This document shows positions 431 to 50,963 of a DNA stretch of 60,101 nucleotides, one piece after another (position 1 is the first letter of the stretch; every line of letters starts with the position of its first letter). Under the pieces are notes generated by a model. It was not told the origin of the DNA. It saw nothing but the letters and a program-made list of their open reading frames with translations, and made no database searches. Source of the DNA: a virus. Its lineage: Duplodnaviria > Caudoviricetes. The stretch lies in IMG/VR virus record IMGVR_UViG_3300020430_000017, positions 1 to 60,101 of that record. One strand, written 5' to 3'. The translations under genes and the position numbers were made by a program.

Positions 431-460
431 TTAGACGTATTTGGGACCGGCTTTATTCAA
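431..460 (-). promoter_or_regulatory. ECF-like promoter, copy 1
   Basis: TTGAATA-N16-CGTCTAA on the minus strand. Confidence 0.75.
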
Positions 461-489
461 TGAAAGGTGAGAAAAGTTTAGAAAAGTGG

Positions 490-558
490 AAGGCTCAACG
501 ACTGGCGCGAGGATCGTGAGAGAGAGAGAAAGACCAGCAGCACGCCAGCCGGAGCCTC
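490..558 (-). ncRNA. structured RNA hairpin with a CU-repeat apical loop (candidate sRNA / 3' UTR element)
   Basis: Stems AGGCUC/GAGCCU, CGGCUGGCGUG/CGCGCCAGUCG and GGUC/GAUC. G-U pairs work only on the minus strand. Loop UUUCUCUCUCUCUCAC, followed by CCACUUUUC. Confidence 0.55.
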
Positions 559-565
559 AGAAAGT

Positions 566-805
566 TTATTGATCGTCGGGATTAGCCCACAGATCGTGAC
601 GCTGAACCTCTGTTAGCCGTCGCTCTGCCATAGTGCGGGTTAGACGCTGAATAACTCCAACGTCTGCCAGCTTGCGGTGAACCTCTACGACTGTCGGCAC
701 GTCCTCTTCGCACGCGATCTGATCCCAAATCGCCATCGCCTTTGTCTCTTCGCCCGAAGATAGAAGGTTAGTAATTTCTTGCACGAATGTATCTACGTTT
801 GACAT
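566..805 (-). CDS. hypothetical protein
   Basis: 79 aa ORF, AAGGA RBS, downstream of the AAA gene. Confidence 0.7.
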   Translation of the reverse strand: MSNVDTFVQEITNLLSSGEETKAMAIWDQIACEEDVPTVVEVHRKLADVGVIQRLTRTMAERRLTEVQRHDLWANPDDQ

Positions 806-849: not shown

Positions 850-1950
850 TTAGGAAGCCTGTCCACCGGAAAGAACCTCGACGATGAATGACGTGACGAG
901 TGTACCGTCCGTCGCAGTCGTCTGGTGCAGCTTGATGCAGTTCTCGACCTCGTTGCCCTCTGCACCGGCAACGGTCCACAGCTTCATGGCTACCTCGGAA
1001 GGCAGAGACACAAAGTAGTCCGCAAGGTTTTGGATCTGATCCTCAGACAGTGCAGCCTTGAAAACCTCCTTAGCCTCCATTTTCTCCACGAGAGCGGAGT
1101 GGTCATTGATACCCCAATCCTTAGTGCGGTCGATCTGACCGTCATCAAGAATGTTCTCGACAGTCACCTGAGCCTCGTAGGTCTTGATGAAGTCTTGAAG
1201 CGCAACGGCAGCCTCAAACCCGACGAACGCGGTCGCAAGGTTAAAGATTGTGCCAGCATCAGCCTTGACTGTCTCTGCTTCCAACAGGTTAGCAGCGGTC
1301 AAGCACTCGTTGAGGCGATCCCAAGAGCGGCGAGAAGGGTAAACCTTGTTAGGCTCAAACTCACCGGAGTGCTCAAGGTGGTTACGGTTAGTGTTGATGA
1401 AGTCCCAAACAAGACCATCAACGTTGTCCTTTGCCCAAGTCAGCCAGTCCTCACAGGTAGGCTCAACGTCGAACACGGTCCAACGGTCAAGCTCTGCCGG
1501 GTCCATTTCGCCGACTTGGTACTGAGCGCCATGCTCACCACCGTTGACGGCAGCGAAGATCAGAGTCTCAGGGTGAAGGGTCCAGCCTGCAATCTTGCGG
1601 CTATCGGTAAGCTCAAAGATACCTTGACGGACCTCCATAGTCGCGCGGTCAACCTCGTCCAAGAACAGGACACAAGGCTCAGTGCAGGCTTGAATAAGCC
1701 AGCTAAACGGACGGAACTGAGAAGCGCCAACACCGTTGACCTCGATCAGTTCTGGGGCTGGCATACCGAGAAGATCACCCTCGGTCATTTGTGAAGCGCG
1801 GCGCTCCACCACAGGCAGACCAGCAGCAGCAGCGTACTGGTACACAACCTGCGACTTGCCAACGCCGTGACGACCGCGCAGAAGCACAGGCTTGCGAACG
1901 CGGGCAACGTGGGGGATAACAGCGGAAAAGGTCTTGAAGTCTACAGCCAT
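850..1950 (-). CDS. MoxR-like AAA+ ATPase
   Basis: Walker A GRHGVGKS, Walker B LFLDEVDRA, AAVN sensor, MDPAELDRW arginine finger, PSRRSW. Confidence 0.9.
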   Translation of the reverse strand: MAVDFKTFSAVIPHVARVRKPVLLRGRHGVGKSQVVYQYAAAAGLPVVERRASQMTEGDLLGMPAPELIEVNGVGASQFRPFSWLIQACTEPCVLFLDEVDRATMEVRQGIFELTDSRKIAGWTLHPETLIFAAVNGGEHGAQYQVGEMDPAELDRWTVFDVEPTCEDWLTWAKDNVDGLVWDFINTNRNHLEHSGEFEPNKVYPSRRSWDRLNECLTAANLLEAETVKADAGTIFNLATAFVGFEAAVALQDFIKTYEAQVTVENILDDGQIDRTKDWGINDHSALVEKMEAKEVFKAALSEDQIQNLADYFVSLPSEVAMKLWTVAGAEGNEVENCIKLHQTTATDGTLVTSFIVEVLSGGQAS

Positions 1951-2028
1951 TTTATTCTCTCTCTCAATGGTTGAAGGGTTGAAGGGCGGAATGCCCGGTA
2001 GTTGAATCTCTCTAACTAACTACATTAG

Positions 2029-2086
2029 TTAGACGTAAAAGGAGGGTGTTTTATTCAAAGAAAATCGAAAAAAGTTGATCTTTTTT
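2029..2086 (-). promoter_or_regulatory. ECF-like promoter, copy 2, with upstream A6/T6 dyad
   Basis: TTGAATA-N16-CGTCTAA; dyad at 2068-2086. Confidence 0.8.
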
Positions 2087-2752: not shown

Positions 2753-3958
2753 CTATTCATCGATGGCGATGATGCGTTCGTTGGTTTGAAAGTATGGGCG
2801 CTGAGCGTAGTACGTGGTAGTCATCCACATACGCTGAGCGTTGCAGTTCTTAGGCTTTGGAGCCATCAGGTCCGTAAGGACGATCATGCCGTCGAAACCG
2901 TTGGCGTTGCAGTGGTCAGTCGGCGGGTCGAAGTTAGTACCTCCGCATGCAACGCGCTCCCACTTACGACGCTCGCCCTTCTTCCAAGTGTAAACCTTGT
3001 CGGCGATTACCTCATCATCGAACGGCACGACAGTAAACTCGGCAAGTGCAGCCAGCTTGTCCAACTCAGAGTAGAAGGCGGCAAGCATCGAATCGGACAC
3101 GGAGCCAGACTGGTCGATGTAGATGCCGATGCGGGCAACACGGTTGACCTTCTTACCCGGATGGATGTAGCGGTAACGCTTGTTCAGGCGCTTGACGGTC
3201 GAGGACCGGTTAGACCGCTGAGTGGTCTTTACAAAGTAGCGCAGCACCTTCTTCCAATCGACCTTTGGCGTGATGCGCTCCATGATCTCCTGACGGGTCT
3301 GGCGACTAACGGAGCCCCATGAGTTAGCGCGTGCGGCTTCCTCGGCTGCTTTCTTGACTGCCTCTTTAAGACGCTCTTTGGCGATCTCATTCATGGTGTT
3401 GTCGCCTTGACCCTCTTCCCATCCAGAGTGATCGTCAAAGCTATCGCCGAAGTCGCGACCACCAGAAGAACCGTCACCGTCGCCGGACTCGCCGTTACCT
3501 TCGCCCTCTTCGCCTTCGCCTTCGTCCTTGTTCTGCTCATCCTTCAACTTGTTGAAGTACCACTCAGCAGACTTGCCAAGGGGCATATCCTCAAATGGAC
3601 CCTCACCGGGCAGACAGCACATGTCGGGCAACTCGCCCTGAAGGTGGGAGTTGATAGCGAGGTCAGTCGCGACGTTCCACAGCTTAGACATACCAGCTTC
3701 GGGAAGGCGACCAGTCACATGCTCAAAGACAAGGTGGTAAAATTCGTGTTTGAGAACACCCAATTTCTGCTTGTCGGTCAGACCCTCAAAGAACTCAGGA
3801 TTATAAAGCATAACGAACGTACCGCGATCCTTGTCCACCTTGACGCCAGCAGTCGGGATAGCGGTCGTAGCTCGCTTGTCGATGCGACGTGAAAGGGCGG
3901 CAAAGAATGGCTCATCCATCAGGAGTCGCGCAGTGTGCATGTTAAGGTTGAAGGACAT
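2753..3958 (-). CDS. vWA-domain protein with N-terminal HExxH metallopeptidase-like domain (DUF2201-like), MoxR partner
   Basis: HEFYH, WNVATDLAIN, acidic Gly linker, MIDAS DQSGS, GGTNF, VLTD. Confidence 0.88.
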   Translation of the reverse strand: MSFNLNMHTARLLMDEPFFAALSRRIDKRATTAIPTAGVKVDKDRGTFVMLYNPEFFEGLTDKQKLGVLKHEFYHLVFEHVTGRLPEAGMSKLWNVATDLAINSHLQGELPDMCCLPGEGPFEDMPLGKSAEWYFNKLKDEQNKDEGEGEEGEGNGESGDGDGSSGGRDFGDSFDDHSGWEEGQGDNTMNEIAKERLKEAVKKAAEEAARANSWGSVSRQTRQEIMERITPKVDWKKVLRYFVKTTQRSNRSSTVKRLNKRYRYIHPGKKVNRVARIGIYIDQSGSVSDSMLAAFYSELDKLAALAEFTVVPFDDEVIADKVYTWKKGERRKWERVACGGTNFDPPTDHCNANGFDGMIVLTDLMAPKPKNCNAQRMWMTTTYYAQRPYFQTNERIIAIDE

Positions 3959-3986
3959 AGTTCTCTCTCTCTGTTTGGTACATCTA

Positions 3987-4044
3987 TTAGACGTACTAGC
4001 AGGGTCTTTTATTCAAAGAAAATCGATCTTTTTTGATCTTTTTT
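3987..4044 (-). promoter_or_regulatory. ECF-like promoter, copy 3
   Basis: TTGAATA-N16-CGTCTAA; upstream AAAAAAGATC x2. Confidence 0.8.
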
Positions 4045-4084
4045 CAGATTTCTTAAATAACTAGGTTCAAAGCCGACAATGGAC

Positions 4085-4822
4085 CTACAGGTCATAGTCG
4101 AGCCAGAAGTGACTGCGGCTCTCGCCCTTCTCAAAGGCGTTGGCGACAAGCGAATCGGGCGGGTTCTTCCAGTCTGGACACTGTTCGACCCACTCTTCGT
4201 CAATCTGTGCTGCCATTTGCTCTGGCGTCAGCTTGCCAACGACCTCGATAGTCATAGCGTAGGTGCTCGTTTGCGCCTCGCGATGAGCAGGACTGTTGAT
4301 TGCAACACTGTGCTTGCGACCAACGCCGCTGATGGGGCGCAACGTCACCTTATAGTTAGGCTGGCGCTTGTGCGTAGACTGTAGATCAAGAGCCTCGACC
4401 ATCATCAGAGTGGATTGAGTGGAATAGCCATACTCCTTGTACTTGACCATGGCACCGATGCCGATGCCGTCTGTCAGCGCCCAATCGCGAACCTCTTGGC
4501 GAGTCTCGCGGGTCATGACCGCATAACGCTCTATGTCTTTCTTGAGGACCGGGCAAGTACGTCGATTGTGACCGTGATCCTTGCAGTAAGAGCACACGCG
4601 CCCGCGACTCTCATCGCGACGACCGCTCTTTTCGCCAGTCTCAGGGTTCACACCCGTCATCTTCGCGATCTGGCGTGCATAGTATTCGGTGTAACGTCCT
4701 TCGCCTTCTTTTTCTTTCTCAAGATTCCGTTGAATGCGTGCTAGACGCTCAGGACACGTACGCTTATTGTGACCGTACTCAAAGCAATAGCTGCAGCGAA
4801 CTCTACCGTTGTAATTACCCAT
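4085..4822 (-). CDS. tandem CCHC zinc-knuckle protein
   Basis: CSYCFEYGHNKRTC and CSYCKDHGHNRRTC (Cx2Cx4Hx4C); paralog at 14390-15058. Confidence 0.8.
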   Translation of the reverse strand: MGNYNGRVRCSYCFEYGHNKRTCPERLARIQRNLEKEKEGEGRYTEYYARQIAKMTGVNPETGEKSGRRDESRGRVCSYCKDHGHNRRTCPVLKKDIERYAVMTRETRQEVRDWALTDGIGIGAMVKYKEYGYSTQSTLMMVEALDLQSTHKRQPNYKVTLRPISGVGRKHSVAINSPAHREAQTSTYAMTIEVVGKLTPEQMAAQIDEEWVEQCPDWKNPPDSLVANAFEKGESRSHFWLDYDL

Positions 4823-4852
4823 GATTTACCTCTCTCTTTGTTGGTACATGTA

Positions 4853-4910
4853 TTAGACGAATGAGGGGAGTGGTTTATTCAAAGAAAAGTGATCTTTTTT
4901 GATCTTTTTT
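4853..4910 (-). promoter_or_regulatory. ECF-like promoter, copy 4
   Basis: TTGAATA-N16-CGTCTAA; upstream AAAAAAGATC x2. Confidence 0.8.
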
Positions 4911-5635: not shown

Positions 5636-5663
5636 ATGAACCTCTCTCTTTGTTGCTCATTTA

Positions 5664-5721
5664 TTAGACGTATGAGCGCATGGGTTTATTCAAAGAAAAG
5701 CGAAAAAAGATCAACTTTTTT
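5664..5721 (-). promoter_or_regulatory. ECF-like promoter, copy 5, with upstream dyad
   Basis: TTGAATA-N16-CGTCTAA; dyad 5703-5721. Confidence 0.8.
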
Positions 5722-6378: not shown

Positions 6379-6729
6379 TCAATACTCCACCGAACGAGTG
6401 ACGTAAATATGGTCAAAGCCCCAGCCCCGAACCTCGTTGTCATCCAGTTCTTCGCCAGTGCGAACGAACCGATAATGATCTTCCATGTCCTCAGCATCGC
6501 AATCGTTCATGAATTCCTCAAGGGCTGCAACCTCTTTGAAAGTATCGTACCACTTGATGTGATCCCAATGAAAGAGGACAGCGCCGTCATCGTAGTTGTC
6601 GATGCGCTTGTCAGCTTCCGAATAGCACAATTTGCGCGCCATTTCACAAGTAGCGAGCGCATTGAGAAACAACGGCAACGCCTCTTTGCCGACAACCAAG
6701 ACAACTTCCGAACGATAACCCACGTACAC
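6379..6729 (-). CDS. conserved phage hypothetical protein
   Basis: GYRSEV...HWDHIKWY...YRFVRTGEELDD; start may be the GTG at 6723. Confidence 0.75.
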   Translation of the reverse strand: MYVGYRSEVVLVVGKEALPLFLNALATCEMARKLCYSEADKRIDNYDDGAVLFHWDHIKWYDTFKEVAALEEFMNDCDAEDMEDHYRFVRTGEELDDNEVRGWGFDHIYVTRSVEY

Positions 6730-6754
6730 CTCTCTCTTTTCGTTGGTACATCTA

Positions 6755-6809
6755 TTAGACGTATGACGTTCAGGGTTTATTCAAAGAAAATTAAAAAAAG
6801 ATCAACTTT
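6755..6809 (-). promoter_or_regulatory. ECF-like promoter, copy 6
   Basis: TTGAATA-N16-CGTCTAA; partial dyad from 6794. Confidence 0.8.
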
Positions 6810-7017
6810 CTTTAGGTCCAGACAAGAATTCTACATCGTTACAAGCGACTGAGAAGATGTCACCATACCGTGGACCAGTGGTAACGACTACGGAAATCGC
6901 CTCCAAGCCATACACAAGATAATGATCGCGAACCAAAGCCAAGGCACCGAACAGGCTGTCACCTACATGATTCGGTCTGCCTCCAAAGGTTAATCTTACT
7001 AAGCTACCCGGATGCAC
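6802..7017 (-). CDS. small SH3/KOW-like protein
   Basis: MHPGSLVRL...DVEFLS. Confidence 0.6.
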   Translation of the reverse strand: MHPGSLVRLTFGGRPNHVGDSLFGALALVRDHYLVYGLEAISVVVTTGPRYGDIFSVACNDVEFLSGPKES

Positions 7018-8434: not shown

Positions 8435-8491
8435 TTAGACGTACAACTTTCAGATTTATTCAAAGAAAGTTCAAAAAAGTTGATATTTTTT
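8435..8491 (-). promoter_or_regulatory. ECF-like promoter, copy 7
   Basis: TTGAATA-N15-CGTCTAA; dyad 8473-8491. Confidence 0.75.
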
Positions 8492-8704: not shown

Positions 8705-8921
8705 GGATCACTTCCAAATCTCTTATGGGCAATCTGAGGATCTGCCCATCGAGCAGCACCTCCGCAAAGGATTCCTTCGGTGCCTTTGACCAATCAATCT
8801 TCTTGCCTCTCTCAGAGGTATTCCACAGCTTGTGCTGAAATACCCGCTTGACCAAGCCCACGGTATCGGGACGTTGCCGACCCACCATAGCTTTCCACCT
8901 TACCAAGTCACCCACTTTCAT
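8691..8921 (-). CDS. small SH3/KOW-like protein
   Basis: MKVGDLVRWK...VGLVKRV...DLEVI. Confidence 0.7.
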   Translation of the reverse strand: MKVGDLVRWKAMVGRQRPDTVGLVKRVFQHKLWNTSERGKKIDWSKAPKESFAEVLLDGQILRLPIRDLEVIHADA

Positions 8922-9781
8922 TCTGGCTCTCCTATCATCAAAATCTCGACTGCTTTCTTTGCAGTGAATGTCCCATCATCATGCTTCTTCCTGCGACCGG
9001 CTGTGTACGTGGTATCAAACTTTACTAAATGATTGCTACCTGTCCGATCCTCAAAGAAATTGTCACCCACATCGCGGTTGGACATAAGAACATAAGCTCC
9101 TAACTCCTTAGAATCATTGAGGAAATCAATCACTTGTTGCTGCAGCCCATCATCAAAGTCAACGCCATACTGAGTGAACGAACCACGATACGGAGGGTCG
9201 AGGAAAACGTAAGAACCACGCTGGATATGGGATAGTGTGTCATTAAAGTCACCGGATAGCAGTGTGCAGCTTTGTAGCGCAGCATGCCATTCCATCACAT
9301 TGTCACGATCATAAACCTTGTCCTTCTGGTTCAACAGACCGCACGGTGTTCCAAAGCGACCGTTGGTGTTCTGGTTGATCTGCCAGATACCATTGAATCC
9401 TGTTTTCATTAGAAAGTACAGTGTTGCAGTCTCCTGAATATCTCCCCACTTGTCGAACTCATACGCATGCTCATTACGCAAAGCATAATAAAACTCCTTT
9501 CGACCGGGCTTATCAAGCGATAGGTAACGTTCCGACAGGCAATCAAGGTGCTCTGTGAACTCTTCAACGTCATCGCGCACCGCTGAATAGATACGCATGA
9601 TAGATTCATTTGAGTCATTCAGCACAAATTCAGCATCAGGATTCTTCTGATATGCCCAAACGAACATAGCACCAGCACCGACAAACGGTTCGACATAATG
9701 ATCGAACGTGTCTGGTAGATACTCGGTGTACTTTTTAATCATGCGAGTCTTACCACCCGCCCACATAAACAATGGCTTCAT
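8918..9781 (-). CDS. DNA adenine methyltransferase (Dam/D12 class)
   Basis: WAGGK, YVEPFVGAGA, VLND, FLDPPY. Confidence 0.92.
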   Translation of the reverse strand: MKPLFMWAGGKTRMIKKYTEYLPDTFDHYVEPFVGAGAMFVWAYQKNPDAEFVLNDSNESIMRIYSAVRDDVEEFTEHLDCLSERYLSLDKPGRKEFYYALRNEHAYEFDKWGDIQETATLYFLMKTGFNGIWQINQNTNGRFGTPCGLLNQKDKVYDRDNVMEWHAALQSCTLLSGDFNDTLSHIQRGSYVFLDPPYRGSFTQYGVDFDDGLQQQVIDFLNDSKELGAYVLMSNRDVGDNFFEDRTGSNHLVKFDTTYTAGRRKKHDDGTFTAKKAVEILMIGEPE

Positions 9782-12685: not shown

Positions 12686-12715
12686 TTAGACGTACAGGGG
12701 TCGAGTTTTATTCAA
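12686..12715 (-). promoter_or_regulatory. ECF-like promoter, copy 8
   Basis: TTGAATA-N16-CGTCTAA. Confidence 0.8.
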
Positions 12716-12731
12716 AGAAAAGTGAAGTTTT

Positions 12732-13025
12732 TTAATAATCGTCTGAAAGCGTGCTGTTAAGGACATAATCAATGTAGTCCTCTGGGCATTTCATGATGAT
12801 AAATCGCCAACCCATCCATTTAGAATCCCACAACTCATTCAACAGGGGTTCATCGAGGGGAGCACTCGGGTTCTCTACCTCAAGCCACAGCACCAAGTGT
12901 GTACCTCCGTCGTCGCTCTCAAACTTAACGTCAAATCGTCCGTCCCAAATGCCCGCAACGTGCTTGCGAAGTGCGCGTTCTGCCTCATCCTTTGGTGACT
13001 TTTCCCCCAGTGCGAATTTAGCCAT
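12732..13025 (-). CDS. hypothetical protein
   Basis: AGGAGAGAG RBS; ACTACTTA at 13052-13059. Confidence 0.7.
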   Translation of the reverse strand: MAKFALGEKSPKDEAERALRKHVAGIWDGRFDVKFESDDGGTHLVLWLEVENPSAPLDEPLLNELWDSKWMGWRFIIMKCPEDYIDYVLNSTLSDDY

Positions 13026-13061
13026 GTCTCTCTCCTATGGTTGGCTATAAGTAAGTAGTTT

Positions 13062-14348: not shown

Positions 14349-14389
14349 TTTGAGAGAGGAAAATTTTCCGGCGAAGTTCCGCGCTGAGA

Positions 14390-47401: not shown

Positions 47402-47487
47402 TGGTAGGACTGGCGGGAATCGAACCCGCATGACCTATGGTCGAGAGATTTTAAGTCTCTTGTGTCTACCAATTCCACCACAGTCCC
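47402..47487 (-). tRNA. tRNA-Leu (anticodon TAA)
   Basis: GGGACTG acceptor, D-loop AATTGGTAGA, AGAGA-CTTAAAA-TCTCT, variable arm, GGTTCGATTCC, encoded CCA. Confidence 0.95.
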
Positions 47488-50117: not shown

Positions 50118-50963
50118 TTACCCTATAATTAGTATTTCAGATGAGGATCCCATCGTTTTTTTGCCGACGCATTTGCCATCGACCCACTCGACATTCTTCA
50201 TGCCGTACGCCCATTCAGCAGTGACGATCTTGCGGTTAGAATAGAGGTCACGCACCTCTGGACAATCATTATATGACATGACCCAATCGGATCTGTCGGA
50301 AATCAAGTTATAAAGCGCCATATGGTCGAAACCGGCGTGTAAGCCCCCTGCTTGCCCGTAGAGCATCGCTGCGTCTTCTGGCAGCATGTAGGGCGGGTCA
50401 AGGTACAGGAAGGCTCTAGGGTGCCATGGGAGGCTCGTCTGGAAGTCTGCATAGTCTACCCTGAAATTCTCGGCGTTAAACTTACGCAATCGGTCGATGG
50501 ATGATTGAGTGAATCGAGCGTATGATGCTCGCTTGGACCAGCCACCGGAAAAGGTAGCTCCTGAGAAGCTAGACCTATTGATTGCATAAAACTTTGCAGC
50601 CTTATCGTACGAGAACATGAACGATGGATCTCGTAGCTGTTCCCGAAAGTTAATAAAATCTTGTTTGGAGCATCCCTCTACAAGTTTAGTAATGCCCTTC
50701 TCTTCAATCTCATACTCCGTGCGCAAGCCAGCGACCTCATCAGCCAGCTTGTCATTGTCACCACAGAGTGCTTGCCAAAACCATACAAGGGGCACCAGCT
50801 TGTCATATCCAATGACTTTGGTGCCCCTTGATGCTACTGCTAATTCCACAGAGCCACCGCCAAAGAATGGCGAGCACAATCGTGGCACATCTTCCGGTAT
50901 GTATGGGAGTATGTGCTTAACAGCGCGTGACTTACCGCCGGGGTAACGTAGTGGAGTTTTCAT
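50118..50963 (-). CDS. DNA adenine methyltransferase (Dam/D12 class)
   Basis: RYPGGKSRA, SPFFGGGS, NRSSFSG, YLDPPY, SYND. Confidence 0.92.
   Translation of the reverse strand: MKTPLRYPGGKSRAVKHILPYIPEDVPRLCSPFFGGGSVELAVASRGTKVIGYDKLVPLVWFWQALCGDNDKLADEVAGLRTEYEIEEKGITKLVEGCSKQDFINFREQLRDPSFMFSYDKAAKFYAINRSSFSGATFSGGWSKRASYARFTQSSIDRLRKFNAENFRVDYADFQTSLPWHPRAFLYLDPPYMLPEDAAMLYGQAGGLHAGFDHMALYNLISDRSDWVMSYNDCPEVRDLYSNRKIVTAEWAYGMKNVEWVDGKCVGKKTMGSSSEILIIG

What the first reader, a model, noticed from the sequence alone, without database searches (positions are those of the whole stretch)
490..558. Candidate phage anti-RBS small RNA: hairpin with a (CU)n loop complementary to the (GA)n leaders of the ECF-class genes
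Seen: after the MoxR/79-aa transcription unit, the minus strand folds into a long three-part stem. It has several G-U pairs that would be A-C mismatches on the other strand, which points to a minus-strand RNA. The 16-nt apical loop is UUUCUCUCUCUCUCAC and the stem is followed by CCACUUUUC. The loop is a perfect 12-nt complement of the vWA leader (AGAGAGAGAGAA, 3961-3972) and an 11-nt complement of the MoxR leader (1955-1965). It also pairs with the AGAGAG(AG) leaders before the starts at 4822, 5635, 6723/6729, 8403 and 13025. Known: bacterial sRNAs present C/U-rich seed loops that occlude ribosome-binding sites, and some derive from 3' UTRs. Inference: one phage RNA could shut down or buffer translation of the whole promoter class that produces it, giving negative feedback or a temporal switch.
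Basis: partly seen in the sequence, partly recalled or inferred. Interest (0 to 1): 0.82.

Follow-up and report, generated by a model that had tools for sequence, protein, structure and literature searches.

The report
Phage terminator loop matching its own leader
A conserved RNA hairpin at the end of a marine phage's chaperone-ATPase message carries a CU-repeat tip that can pair with the GA-repeat ribosome-binding leader of that same message and of its partner gene, so it probably limits their translation, though no RNA experiment has tested this.

Summary
On the minus strand, 490-558 folds into a 22-pair, three-part hairpin (-31.2 kcal/mol, z -3.7; plus strand z -0.55) with the 16-nt loop UUUCUCUCUCUCUCAC. 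It lies between the stop of the 79-aa gene and the next promoter.

All 8 close relatives (87-99% ATPase identity) keep a hairpin there with CUCUCUC in the loop, and the stems carry compensatory changes. Across 171 distinct relatives, 25 have a CU motif in the 3' UTR of the MoxR-like ATPase unit, in four separate clades.

Where the ATPase leader differs, the loop differs to match (for example GGAAAGUUA with UAACUUUCC, and UUGUGGUG with CACCACAA). Own leader-loop pairs beat permuted pairs (p = 5e-5, also with the CU run masked), but this is a clade-level signal.

In the window the two best targets among 82 gene starts are the vWA leader (12 nt) and the ATPase leader (11 nt).

Best reading: a terminator-type 3' hairpin whose loop masks the ribosome-binding leader of its own operon and its partner, in the manner of icaR.

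A class-wide trans-acting sRNA remains possible but is less supported. No transcript data exist. It matches no Rfam family, and two literature searches found no description.

The parts
490..558 (-). Long three-part hairpin (7 + 11 + 4 pairs, 4 of them G-U) at the 3' end of the ATPase/79-aa transcription unit
516..531 (-). 16-nt apical loop UUUCUCUCUCUCUCAC, the proposed anti-leader seed
470..489 (-). Tail CCACUUUUCUAAACUUUUCU: a weak U-tract (4 T in the first 9 nt) that is also the T-rich upstream element of the next promoter
431..460 (-). Next promoter of the repeated class (TTGAATAAA at 452-460, CGTCTAA at 431-437), driving the gene that starts at 388
566..805 (-). 79-aa gene, last gene of the unit. 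No Pfam or PHROG hit. A small ORF sits at this position in the 8 close relatives
850..1950 (-). MoxR-like AAA+ ATPase gene (PF07728; phrog_1297, E 2e-45), first gene of the unit
1955..1966 (-). ATPase leader UGAGAGAGAGAA, 4 nt before the AUG. It has an 11-nt perfect complement in the loop (duplex -19.1 kcal/mol)
2029..2058 (-). Promoter of the ATPase unit (TTGAATAAA at 2050-2058, CGTCTAA at 2029-2035)
2753..3958 (-). vWA/DUF2201 partner gene (PF13203 + PF09967; phrog_1314)
3961..3972 (-). vWA leader AGAGAGAGAGAA with a 12-nt perfect complement in the loop (duplex -19.6 kcal/mol), the best of 82 gene starts
4830..4837 (-). GA leader (8-nt complement) before the start at 4822, a weaker candidate target
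5642..5649 (-). GA leader (8-nt run) downstream of the promoter at 5693, a weaker candidate target
6730..6737 (-). GA leader (8-nt complement) before the start at 6729, a weaker candidate target
13027..13034 (-). GA leader (8-nt complement) before the start at 13025, a weaker candidate target

Best explanation
The hairpin is the 3' end structure (terminator type) of the transcription unit: promoter at 2058, GA leader, MoxR-like ATPase, 79-aa gene. Its stem holds open a large single-stranded pyrimidine loop. That loop is an anti-leader seed. It base-pairs with the purine-rich ribosome-binding leader of the ATPase message it belongs to, and with the leader of the ATPase's vWA partner. This hides the ribosome-binding site and lowers translation, and probably shortens mRNA life.

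Pairing could occur within one molecule (a 5'-3' UTR contact) or between copies, or from a processed 3' fragment. Sequence alone cannot tell these apart.

Shown here: the structure, its strand, its conservation with stem covariation, the fixed CU core, its constant link to the 3' end of the ATPase unit, and loop changes that follow leader changes. Inferred: that the pairing happens in cells and represses.
For: Structure and strand: z -3.72 on the minus strand against -0.55 on the plus strand; 4 of 22 pairs are G-U.

Conservation in close relatives: 8 of 8 (ATPase 87-99% identical) keep a 21-27-pair hairpin at the same place with CUCUCUC in the loop. In 9 of 13 compared stem positions both sides change while the pair is kept. 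RNAalifold found such changes in 6 of 10 predicted pairs.

Wider family: 21 loop-form and 4 flank-form members among 171 usable distinct ATPase loci. They fall in 4 separate clades of the ATPase tree, which needs a minimum of 4 changes. Clade A is 8 of 8, clade B 3 of 3, clade C 13 of 13.

Position: 19 of 25 qualifying CTCTC-loop hairpins on the sense strand of 174 loci lie within 400 nt 3' of the ATPase stop. That zone is about 7% of the 1.04 Mb scanned. In the complete relative G001, 1 of 16 CTCTCTCA sites sits in a long hairpin loop, and it is this one.

Leader-loop matching: a GA run of 7 or more in the leader against the CU loop gives counts of 18 / 8 / 3 / 142. Variant pairs are:
- L028: GGAAAGTTA with TAACTTTCC
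- L010: AAAAAGGAAA
- L056: GAAAGGAAAA
- L187 and L175: TTGTGGTG plus GGAGATAG
- L205: a 16-nt match to the 5' end of its leader
Leader GTGGTGA against 3' UTR TCACCAC gives 4 / 1 / 2 / 164.

Permutation over 18 members: own sum 172 against 146.0 +/- 5.8, p = 5e-5. With CU runs masked: 101 against 81.1 +/- 4.8, p = 5e-5.

Window targets: vWA -19.6 and ATPase -19.1 kcal/mol are ranks 1 and 2 of 82 gene starts, with a median of -6.35.

ATPase against vWA leaders in 11 members: ATPase p = 0.001 (0.0002 masked); vWA p = 0.016 (0.022 masked).

Precedent, from abstracts only: icaR 3' UTR-SD pairing (PMC3868564), and aSD-like pyrimidine sequences hundreds of nt downstream that pair with the RBS and repress (PMC12697547).
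Against: There are no transcript, 3'-end or expression data for this uncultured phage.

Loop and leader are low-complexity pyrimidine and purine runs, so some complementarity comes free. In a plain all-against-all matrix, loops of other phages match a given leader as well as its own loop in the (GA)n clades.

The permutation p-values count related sequences as independent. The signal amounts to a few clade-level events. The independent-pairs test on the tree was not significant (2 pairs go the same way, 0 the other way, 7 show no difference).

In clade C the two loop motifs stand in the same 5'-to-3' order as their two leader partners, so they cannot form one continuous helix.

Eight of 26 loci with a GA-run leader were first scored as lacking the CU loop. 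Two of these proved to be flank forms, so 6 lack any CU motif.

RNAcofold cannot model loop-strand pairing and gave no gain.

The window's own U-tract is weak, with 4 T in 9 nt.
Confidence: 0.55

Rival explanations
1. The hairpin is released or kept as a stable 3'-derived small RNA. It acts in trans on the whole class of GA-leader genes, as a feedback loop or a temporal switch for that promoter class.
For: Five further class leaders carry 6-8-nt complements (4822, 5642-5649, 6729, 13025, 8403), and 8-nt seeds are enough for many known sRNAs (general knowledge).

In relatives, the leaders of neighbouring genes are also GA-rich.

In the complete relative G001, both motifs of the loop recur in the unstructured 3' UTR of the tail sheath/tube operon, followed by a canonical terminator. 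That only makes sense for action in trans.
Against: The ATPase and vWA leaders are 3-5 kcal/mol better than any other class leader.

Loop variants follow sequences peculiar to the ATPase leader rather than the neighbouring gene's leader: 8 of 11 members match the ATPase leader better, and in all 8 clade C members.

The element always stays at the 3' end of the ATPase unit, even where the gene order with vWA differs.

No second copy was seen in the window or in the partial genomes G002 and G003.

The hairpin has no promoter of its own; it starts 7 nt after the stop codon.
Confidence: 0.2
2. It is a terminator or 3'-end stabiliser whose pyrimidine loop is conserved for some reason other than RNA-RNA pairing. 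Examples would be a binding site for a host or phage RNA-binding protein (S1, Hfq or similar), or a feature that tunes termination.
For: The stem is GC-rich. A U-rich tail (5 or more T in 9 nt) follows in 18 of 21 members. The script gave 17, but it picked the wrong hairpin for L083; the right one has the tail TCTTTTTTC.

The CUCUCA core is fixed across clades, as expected for a protein site.
Against: A protein site does not explain why the rest of the loop changes to mirror each phage's own leader. It also does not explain why 4 members show the CU motif as a single-stranded flank rather than in a loop. The three clade B hairpins include two with no U-tract at all (L015 and L208).
Confidence: 0.15
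3. It is an insulator for read-through. When transcription runs through the hairpin, the loop folds back on the ribosome-binding leader of the next gene downstream, so that gene is translated only from its own promoter.
For: In clades B and C the hairpin sits directly upstream of the vWA promoter and its GA-rich leader.
Against: In the window clade the downstream gene (start at 388) has a canonical AAGGAG site and only a 5-nt match (-14.0 kcal/mol). Loop variants fit the upstream ATPase leader better than the downstream vWA leader in all 8 clade C members tested.
Confidence: 0.05
4. It is an ordinary terminator that happens to contain a neutral CT microsatellite. The match to the GA leaders is a by-product of low complexity.
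For: The repeat length slips among near-identical relatives: (CU)6 in the window, one unit fewer in L163, and the leader repeat is shorter in L164 and L165. Cross-matches are as good as own matches within the (GA)n clades.
Against: The CU core persists while the surrounding stems are completely replaced. It recurs in four clades, always at the 3' end of the same gene unit. The non-repeat parts of the loops still match their own leaders (masked test). CTCTC is otherwise half as frequent as GAGAG on the sense strand (835 against 1621).
Confidence: 0.05

Closest known systems
icaR mRNA 5'-3' UTR interaction of Staphylococcus aureus (PMC3868564; abstract read)
   Same: A pyrimidine motif in the 3' UTR (UCCCCUG) pairs with the Shine-Dalgarno region of the same mRNA and blocks the initiation complex.
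   Different: In icaR the motif lies in a 3' UTR the paper classes as long (over 100 nt), and the duplex is an RNase III substrate. Here the motif is the apical loop of the terminal hairpin, in a phage. The seed is a CU repeat matched to a non-canonical GA leader, and a second gene (vWA) is an equally good target. Nothing has been tested experimentally.
Long-range anti-Shine-Dalgarno-like sequences in Bacillus subtilis mRNAs (Gill et al. 2025, PMC12697547; abstract read)
   Same: Pyrimidine-rich sequences hundreds of nt downstream pair with the RBS, promote decay and inhibit initiation. Such sequences are depleted from genes. Here CTCTC is half as frequent as GAGAG on the sense strand.
   Different: That work describes a general constraint revealed by synthetic substitutions. 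Here the sequence is positively conserved, displayed in a loop, and changes with the leader.
B. subtilis hbs mRNA 5'/3'-UTR interaction (PMC5737220; abstract read)
   Same: A long-range 5'-3' UTR duplex (14 bp) within one bacterial mRNA.
   Different: In hbs the duplex modulates RNase Y cleavage of the leader, affecting stability rather than masking the RBS. There is no loop display and no phage context.
3' UTR-derived small RNAs such as NarS (PMC7038943) and those reviewed in PMC9438474 (search listing and start of abstracts only)
   Same: The terminator hairpin of an mRNA doubles as a base-pairing regulator of other messages, and sometimes of its own operon.
   Different: In those sRNAs the seed usually lies 5' of the terminator hairpin, not in its loop (recalled). 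The 4 flank-form relatives resemble them more closely. No processing site or chaperone dependence is known here.
c4 antisense RNA of phages P1 and P7, and lambda sib retroregulation (recalled; no call)
   Same: Both are phage RNAs that control translation or stability of a gene in their own transcription unit. c4 uses two short loop motifs that pair at an RBS. sib is a 3' hairpin that acts back on the upstream gene.
   Different: c4 lies upstream of its target and is processed into a discrete RNA. sib works through RNase III cleavage, not RBS masking. Rfam gave no match in the window.

Membership tests
Intrinsic (Rho-independent) terminator | GC-rich stem | tested here: met
   22 pairs, 14 of them G-C, -30.7 kcal/mol
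Intrinsic (Rho-independent) terminator | Short loop (about 3-8 nt) | tested here: not met
   The loop is 16 nt in the window and 10-29 nt in the 21 members. The simple terminator scan did not call the whole hairpin.
Intrinsic (Rho-independent) terminator | U-tract directly 3' of the stem | tested here: inconclusive
   The window has CCACUUUUC, 4 T in 9 nt. 18 of 21 members have 5 or more T in 9 nt (with the L083 hairpin corrected). L015 and L208 have none.
icaR-type 5'-3' UTR pairing | 3' UTR motif complementary to the SD region of the same mRNA | tested here: met
   11-nt perfect complement 4-15 nt upstream of the ATPase AUG. Matched variants occur in relatives.
icaR-type 5'-3' UTR pairing | Pairing occurs and blocks initiation (gel shift, toeprint, mutants) | not testable with these tools
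   This needs bench work. RNAcofold cannot represent loop-strand pairing.
3' UTR-derived small RNA | A stable fragment ending at the mRNA's terminator accumulates | not testable with these tools
   No transcriptome data are available for this uncultured phage.
3' UTR-derived small RNA | Conserved single-stranded seed with complementary targets in other mRNAs | tested here: met
   The CUCUCA core is conserved. The vWA leader gives 12 nt, and four further leaders give 8 nt.
Any Rfam 15 family | Score at or above the family's gathering threshold | tested here: not met
   Only a tRNA passes in the whole window. At 380-700 there are two chance-level hits, E 0.31 and 3.2.

The most novel reading that the evidence does not exclude
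These uncultured marine jumbo phages carry a programmed 'anti-leader' RNA system. Single-stranded pyrimidine seeds sit in terminator loops or 3' UTRs and are matched to the phage's own non-canonical purine leaders. They act in trans as a timer. In the complete relative G001, the abundant late tail sheath/tube message ends in a 3' UTR with the same two seeds as the ATPase terminator loop. That message would switch off the early MoxR/vWA genes, and perhaps the whole GA-leader class, late in infection.
Probability: 0.15. Interest if true: 0.8.

Novelty: new variant of a known kind. Interest (0 to 1): 0.62.

Why it matters
Post-transcriptional control by phage-encoded RNA is little mapped, and hardly at all for uncultured marine jumbo phages. 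This element is small and sharply defined, and relatives of its gene are common in marine metagenomes (572 of the first 599 matching stretches encoded a relative). It makes a clear, testable prediction: the loop pairs with the leader, and compensatory mutations should restore regulation.

If confirmed, it would extend 3'-to-5' mRNA pairing, known from a few bacterial genes, to phages. It would show a terminator loop used as the seed. It would also explain why these phages use odd (GA)n leaders in place of canonical Shine-Dalgarno sites for the MoxR/vWA pair. The leader-hairpin pair could also serve as a compact translational throttle in synthetic constructs.

Tried and rejected
- DNA searches of the first 6 kb against 50,697 phage records found nothing. 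The best protein match in a cultured phage is 30.4% identity.
- The 79-aa protein has no tblastn match in the first 80 loci. Synteny was therefore anchored on the ATPase.
- The window's exact promoter motif is present in only 1 of 80 IMG/VR loci (L039), so it could not be used to find relatives.
- A plain all-against-all leader-loop matrix (longest complement and RNAduplex energy) showed no own-pair advantage in the (GA)n clades. It was replaced by a permutation test, with and without masking.
- treekit independent_pairs between GA leader and CU loop gave 2 pairs the same way, 0 the other way and 7 no difference, which is not significant.
- RNAcofold of the hairpin with leaders gave ddG of 0 to -0.2. 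The method cannot form loop-strand helices.
- The fold of the ATPase leader alone is not better than shuffles (z -0.63). RNAalifold on 7 leaders found no covarying helix.
- The MAFFT alignment of the hairpins misaligned the inner stems, so pairs were also counted from each sequence's own fold.
- A search for second copies of the loop motifs in the window, G002 and G003 found only scattered 8-13-mers. The tail-operon proteins of G001 have no match in those three.
- RNase III processing site was considered. Clade C stems have only 12-14 pairs, so RNase III cleavage is unlikely to be the shared function. The size an RNase III substrate needs is recalled, not from a call.
- Antisense promoter in the hairpin was considered. 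By eye, the arms are GC-rich and no promoter-like hexamers were seen (sequence; no scan was run).
- No covariance model was built, because the stems share no sequence between clades.

Full report
**What is there.** The window is a 60,101-base IMG/VR virus record estimated at 33% complete. Nearly all genes lie on the minus strand (71 of 83 crude ORFs). It carries GroEL, a DnaE-type polymerase, ribonucleotide reductase and DnaB. It has no close cultured relative: there is no DNA match, and the best protein identity is 30.4%.

On the minus strand the order is as follows:
- promoter (TTGAATAAA at 2050-2058, CGTCTAA at 2029-2035)
- leader ending in UGAGAGAGAGAAUAAA-AUG
- MoxR-like AAA+ ATPase (1950-850)
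- 79-aa gene (805-566)
- the hairpin (558-490)
- a T-rich tail, then the next promoter of the same repeated class (460-431)

The class has 8 copies on the minus strand, at 460, 2058, 4016, 4882, 5693, 6784, 8463 and 12715.

The minus strand folds at -31.2 kcal/mol with z -3.72, and 0 of 200 shuffles do as well. The plus strand is ordinary, with z -0.55. The stem has 7 + 11 + 4 pairs, 4 of them G-U. The loop is UUUCUCUCUCUCUCAC. It is a perfect complement of 12 nt of the vWA leader and 11 nt of the ATPase leader. Among 82 gene starts these two are ranks 1 and 2 (-19.6 and -19.1 kcal/mol; next best -16.7; median -6.35). Four other class leaders have 8-nt matches (before the starts at 4822, 6729 and 13025, and the run at 5642-5649), and the one before 8403 has a 6-nt match. 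No Rfam family matches.

**Conservation.** The ATPase found 238 relatives in IMG/VR (80 kept, 63-71% identity). In metagenomes, 572 of the first 599 matching stretches encoded a relative (80 kept). Eight of these are close (L163-L170, 87-99%).

All eight have, after the small gene, a hairpin of 21-27 pairs with CUCUCUC in the apical loop. The arms differ. L165 has compensating changes in the second helix, and L166-L168 have different stems altogether. Counting from each sequence's own fold, all nine keep a 7-pair outer helix, a 1-2-nt 3' bulge and a second helix. In 9 of 13 compared positions both sides change. RNAalifold on a poorer MAFFT alignment found such changes in 6 of 10 pairs.

**A wider family tied to the ATPase unit.** After removing duplicates there are 174 complete ATPase genes, 171 with usable flanks.
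- Twenty-one have a long hairpin with a pyrimidine loop of 10-29 nt containing CUCUC, either directly after the ATPase or after the small gene.
- Four more (L206, L218, L233, L241) show UCUCUCUCA as a single-stranded stretch between the stop codon and an ordinary terminator stem.
- L189 and L193 have a U-rich loop facing an A-rich leader.

On the ATPase tree the 25 CU-bearing rows form four separate groups: the window clade (8 of 8), L015/L192/L208 (3 of 3), a 13-row clade (13 of 13), and L120. The minimum is 4 changes.

The position is highly non-random. On the sense strand of 174 loci (1.04 Mb), 25 loops qualify, and 19 of them lie within 400 nt 3' of the ATPase stop. The antisense strand gives 24 qualifying loops from twice as many CTCTC sites. 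In the complete 203,859-base relative G001, only 1 of 16 CTCTCTCA sites lies in a long hairpin loop, and it is the ATPase one. A U-rich tail follows in 18 of 21 members (with L083 corrected). The window itself is one of the three exceptions.

**The loop follows the leader.** A GA run of 7 or more in the ATPase leader goes with the CU loop, with counts of 18 / 8 / 3 / 142. Two of the 8 proved to be flank forms. More telling, where the leader is different the loop is different:

| Phage | Leader element | Loop element |
|---|---|---|
| L028 | GGAAAGUUA next to the AUG | UAACUUUCC |
| L010 | AAAAAGGAAA | complementary stretch |
| L056 | GAAAGGAAAA | complementary stretch |
| L187, L175 | UUGUGGUG (in the loop of a small 5' hairpin) and GGAGAUAG (Shine-Dalgarno) | CACCACAA and CUAUCUCC |
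| L205 | 5' end of its leader | 16 nt complementary |

Leader GTGGTGA and 3' UTR TCACCAC co-occur with counts of 4 / 1 / 2 / 164.

Over 18 members, own leader-loop pairs exceed permuted pairs: 172 against 146.0 +/- 5.8, p = 5e-5. This also holds after masking every CU run: 101 against 81.1 +/- 4.8, p = 5e-5. Where both leaders are available (11 members), the ATPase leader is the better match in 8 and gives the stronger permutation signal (p = 0.001, or 0.0002 masked). The vWA leader gives p = 0.016 and 0.022 masked.

**Limits of that evidence.**
- Both partners are low-complexity. A plain matrix showed cross-matches as good as own matches within the (GA)n clades.
- Related sequences are not independent, so the p-values describe a few clade-level events. 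The independent-pairs test on the tree was not significant.
- In the 13-row clade the two loop motifs stand in the same order as their leader partners, so they cannot form one continuous helix. Two separate short helices, or alternative pairings, would be needed.
- Cofolding software cannot model this kind of pairing.
- No expression data exist.

**Mechanism.** The most likely reading (0.55) is a 3' terminal hairpin whose loop masks the ribosome-binding leader of its own ATPase message and of the vWA partner. Two published cases support the principle; I read only their abstracts. One is the icaR 5'-3' UTR pairing (PMC3868564). The other is the recent finding that anti-SD-like pyrimidine sequences far downstream pair with the RBS and repress (PMC12697547).

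A perfect 11-12-bp CU/GA duplex would compete well with the 16S rRNA tail, because (GA)n is an imperfect Shine-Dalgarno. This step is inference.

It gains something from G001, where both loop motifs (UCUCUCUCUCA and CAACAACCAU) recur in the unstructured 3' UTR of the tail sheath/tube operon ahead of a canonical terminator. A related pyrimidine-rich 3' UTR is kept in L287 and L288. No such second copy was found in the window, G002 or G003.

Three other readings are less likely, for the reasons given under rivals: a protein-binding loop (0.15), a read-through insulator (0.05) and a neutral microsatellite (0.05).

**Novelty.** Two literature searches listed no paper on such an element. None of the 8 papers listed contains the word MoxR. 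Earlier notes of this scan on other genomes describe the same kind of moxR 3' hairpin. I saw them only after my own analysis, and they are not independent evidence. I rate this a new variant of a known kind: 3' UTR to 5' leader pairing, here in a phage, with the seed in a terminator loop and a repeat-based leader.

Noticed in passing
G001 (complete relative; locus L271) about 130293-130380 in genome coordinates; also L287 about 2895-3000 and L288 about 3985-4090: The tail sheath/tube operon ends in a roughly 55-nt unstructured pyrimidine-rich 3' UTR, followed by an 11-pair terminator and U7. In G001 this UTR carries the same two motifs as the ATPase terminator loop. Relatives at 74-75% tube identity keep a related CU/CA-rich UTR (shared CACACC-ACCCUCAC). 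It looks like a candidate 3' UTR-derived small RNA.
   Followed up: partly
window 431-488, 2029-2086, about 3990-4044, about 4855-4910, about 5665-5721, about 6755-6812, about 8435-8491, about 12690-12743 (minus strand): There are eight copies of a promoter-like element, TTTCTTTGAATAAA-N14/15-TACGTCTAA. Most are preceded by A/T-rich repeats or palindromes that contain GATC (for example AAAAAAGATCAACTTTTTT). The phage encodes two DNA methyltransferases (8918-9781 and 50118-50963). The sigma factor and any role of methylation are untested.
   Followed up: partly
ATPase leaders of L010, L015, L028, L056, L187, L205 and others, compared with the window, L163-L170, L039 and L211: Two promoter types drive the same ATPase gene. 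The window clade and L039/L211 use the TTGAATAAA...CGTCTAA type. Other clades use sigma-70-like TTGAC(A/T)-N17-TATAtT. So the promoter type has been swapped among relatives.
   Followed up: no
5' leaders of L199, L232, L241, L233, L206, L218, L187, L175, L010 and L169: A short 5' hairpin of 4-6 pairs presents UGAGAGA(GA) or UUGUGGUGA in its loop, complementary to the 5' half of the terminator loop or flank motif. This suggests a loop-loop contact in addition to Shine-Dalgarno pairing. The stems were judged by eye, not by a fold call.
   Followed up: partly
L215, L204, L196, L171, L194, L087 (3' of the ATPase): In the sister clade without CU loops, the terminator's 3' arm contains the -35 TTGAC of the next promoter, and the loop is A-rich. 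Terminator and promoter are interlocked.
   Followed up: no
174 related loci, sense strand: GAGAG is about twice as frequent as CTCTC on the coding-sense strand (1621 against 835 sites). This fits depletion of anti-leader-like words from messages.
   Followed up: no
window 14351-14359 (minus strand): CCUCUCUCA lies just upstream of a variant promoter (TGAATAAA-N14-TACGTCCAA), after a small hairpin that follows the stop of the 222-aa gene. It sits where other copies have the T-rich upstream element, so it is probably part of the promoter and not a second seed.
   Followed up: partly
window 47402-47487 (minus strand): tRNA-Leu (anticodon UAA), the only Rfam or ARAGORN hit in the window.
   Followed up: no
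L015 / G001 ATPase start region: The second half of the L015 loop (CAACAACCAU) complements AUGGCUGUUG, the start codon and first codons of its ATPase, with one C-A mismatch. The alignment was made by eye.
   Followed up: no
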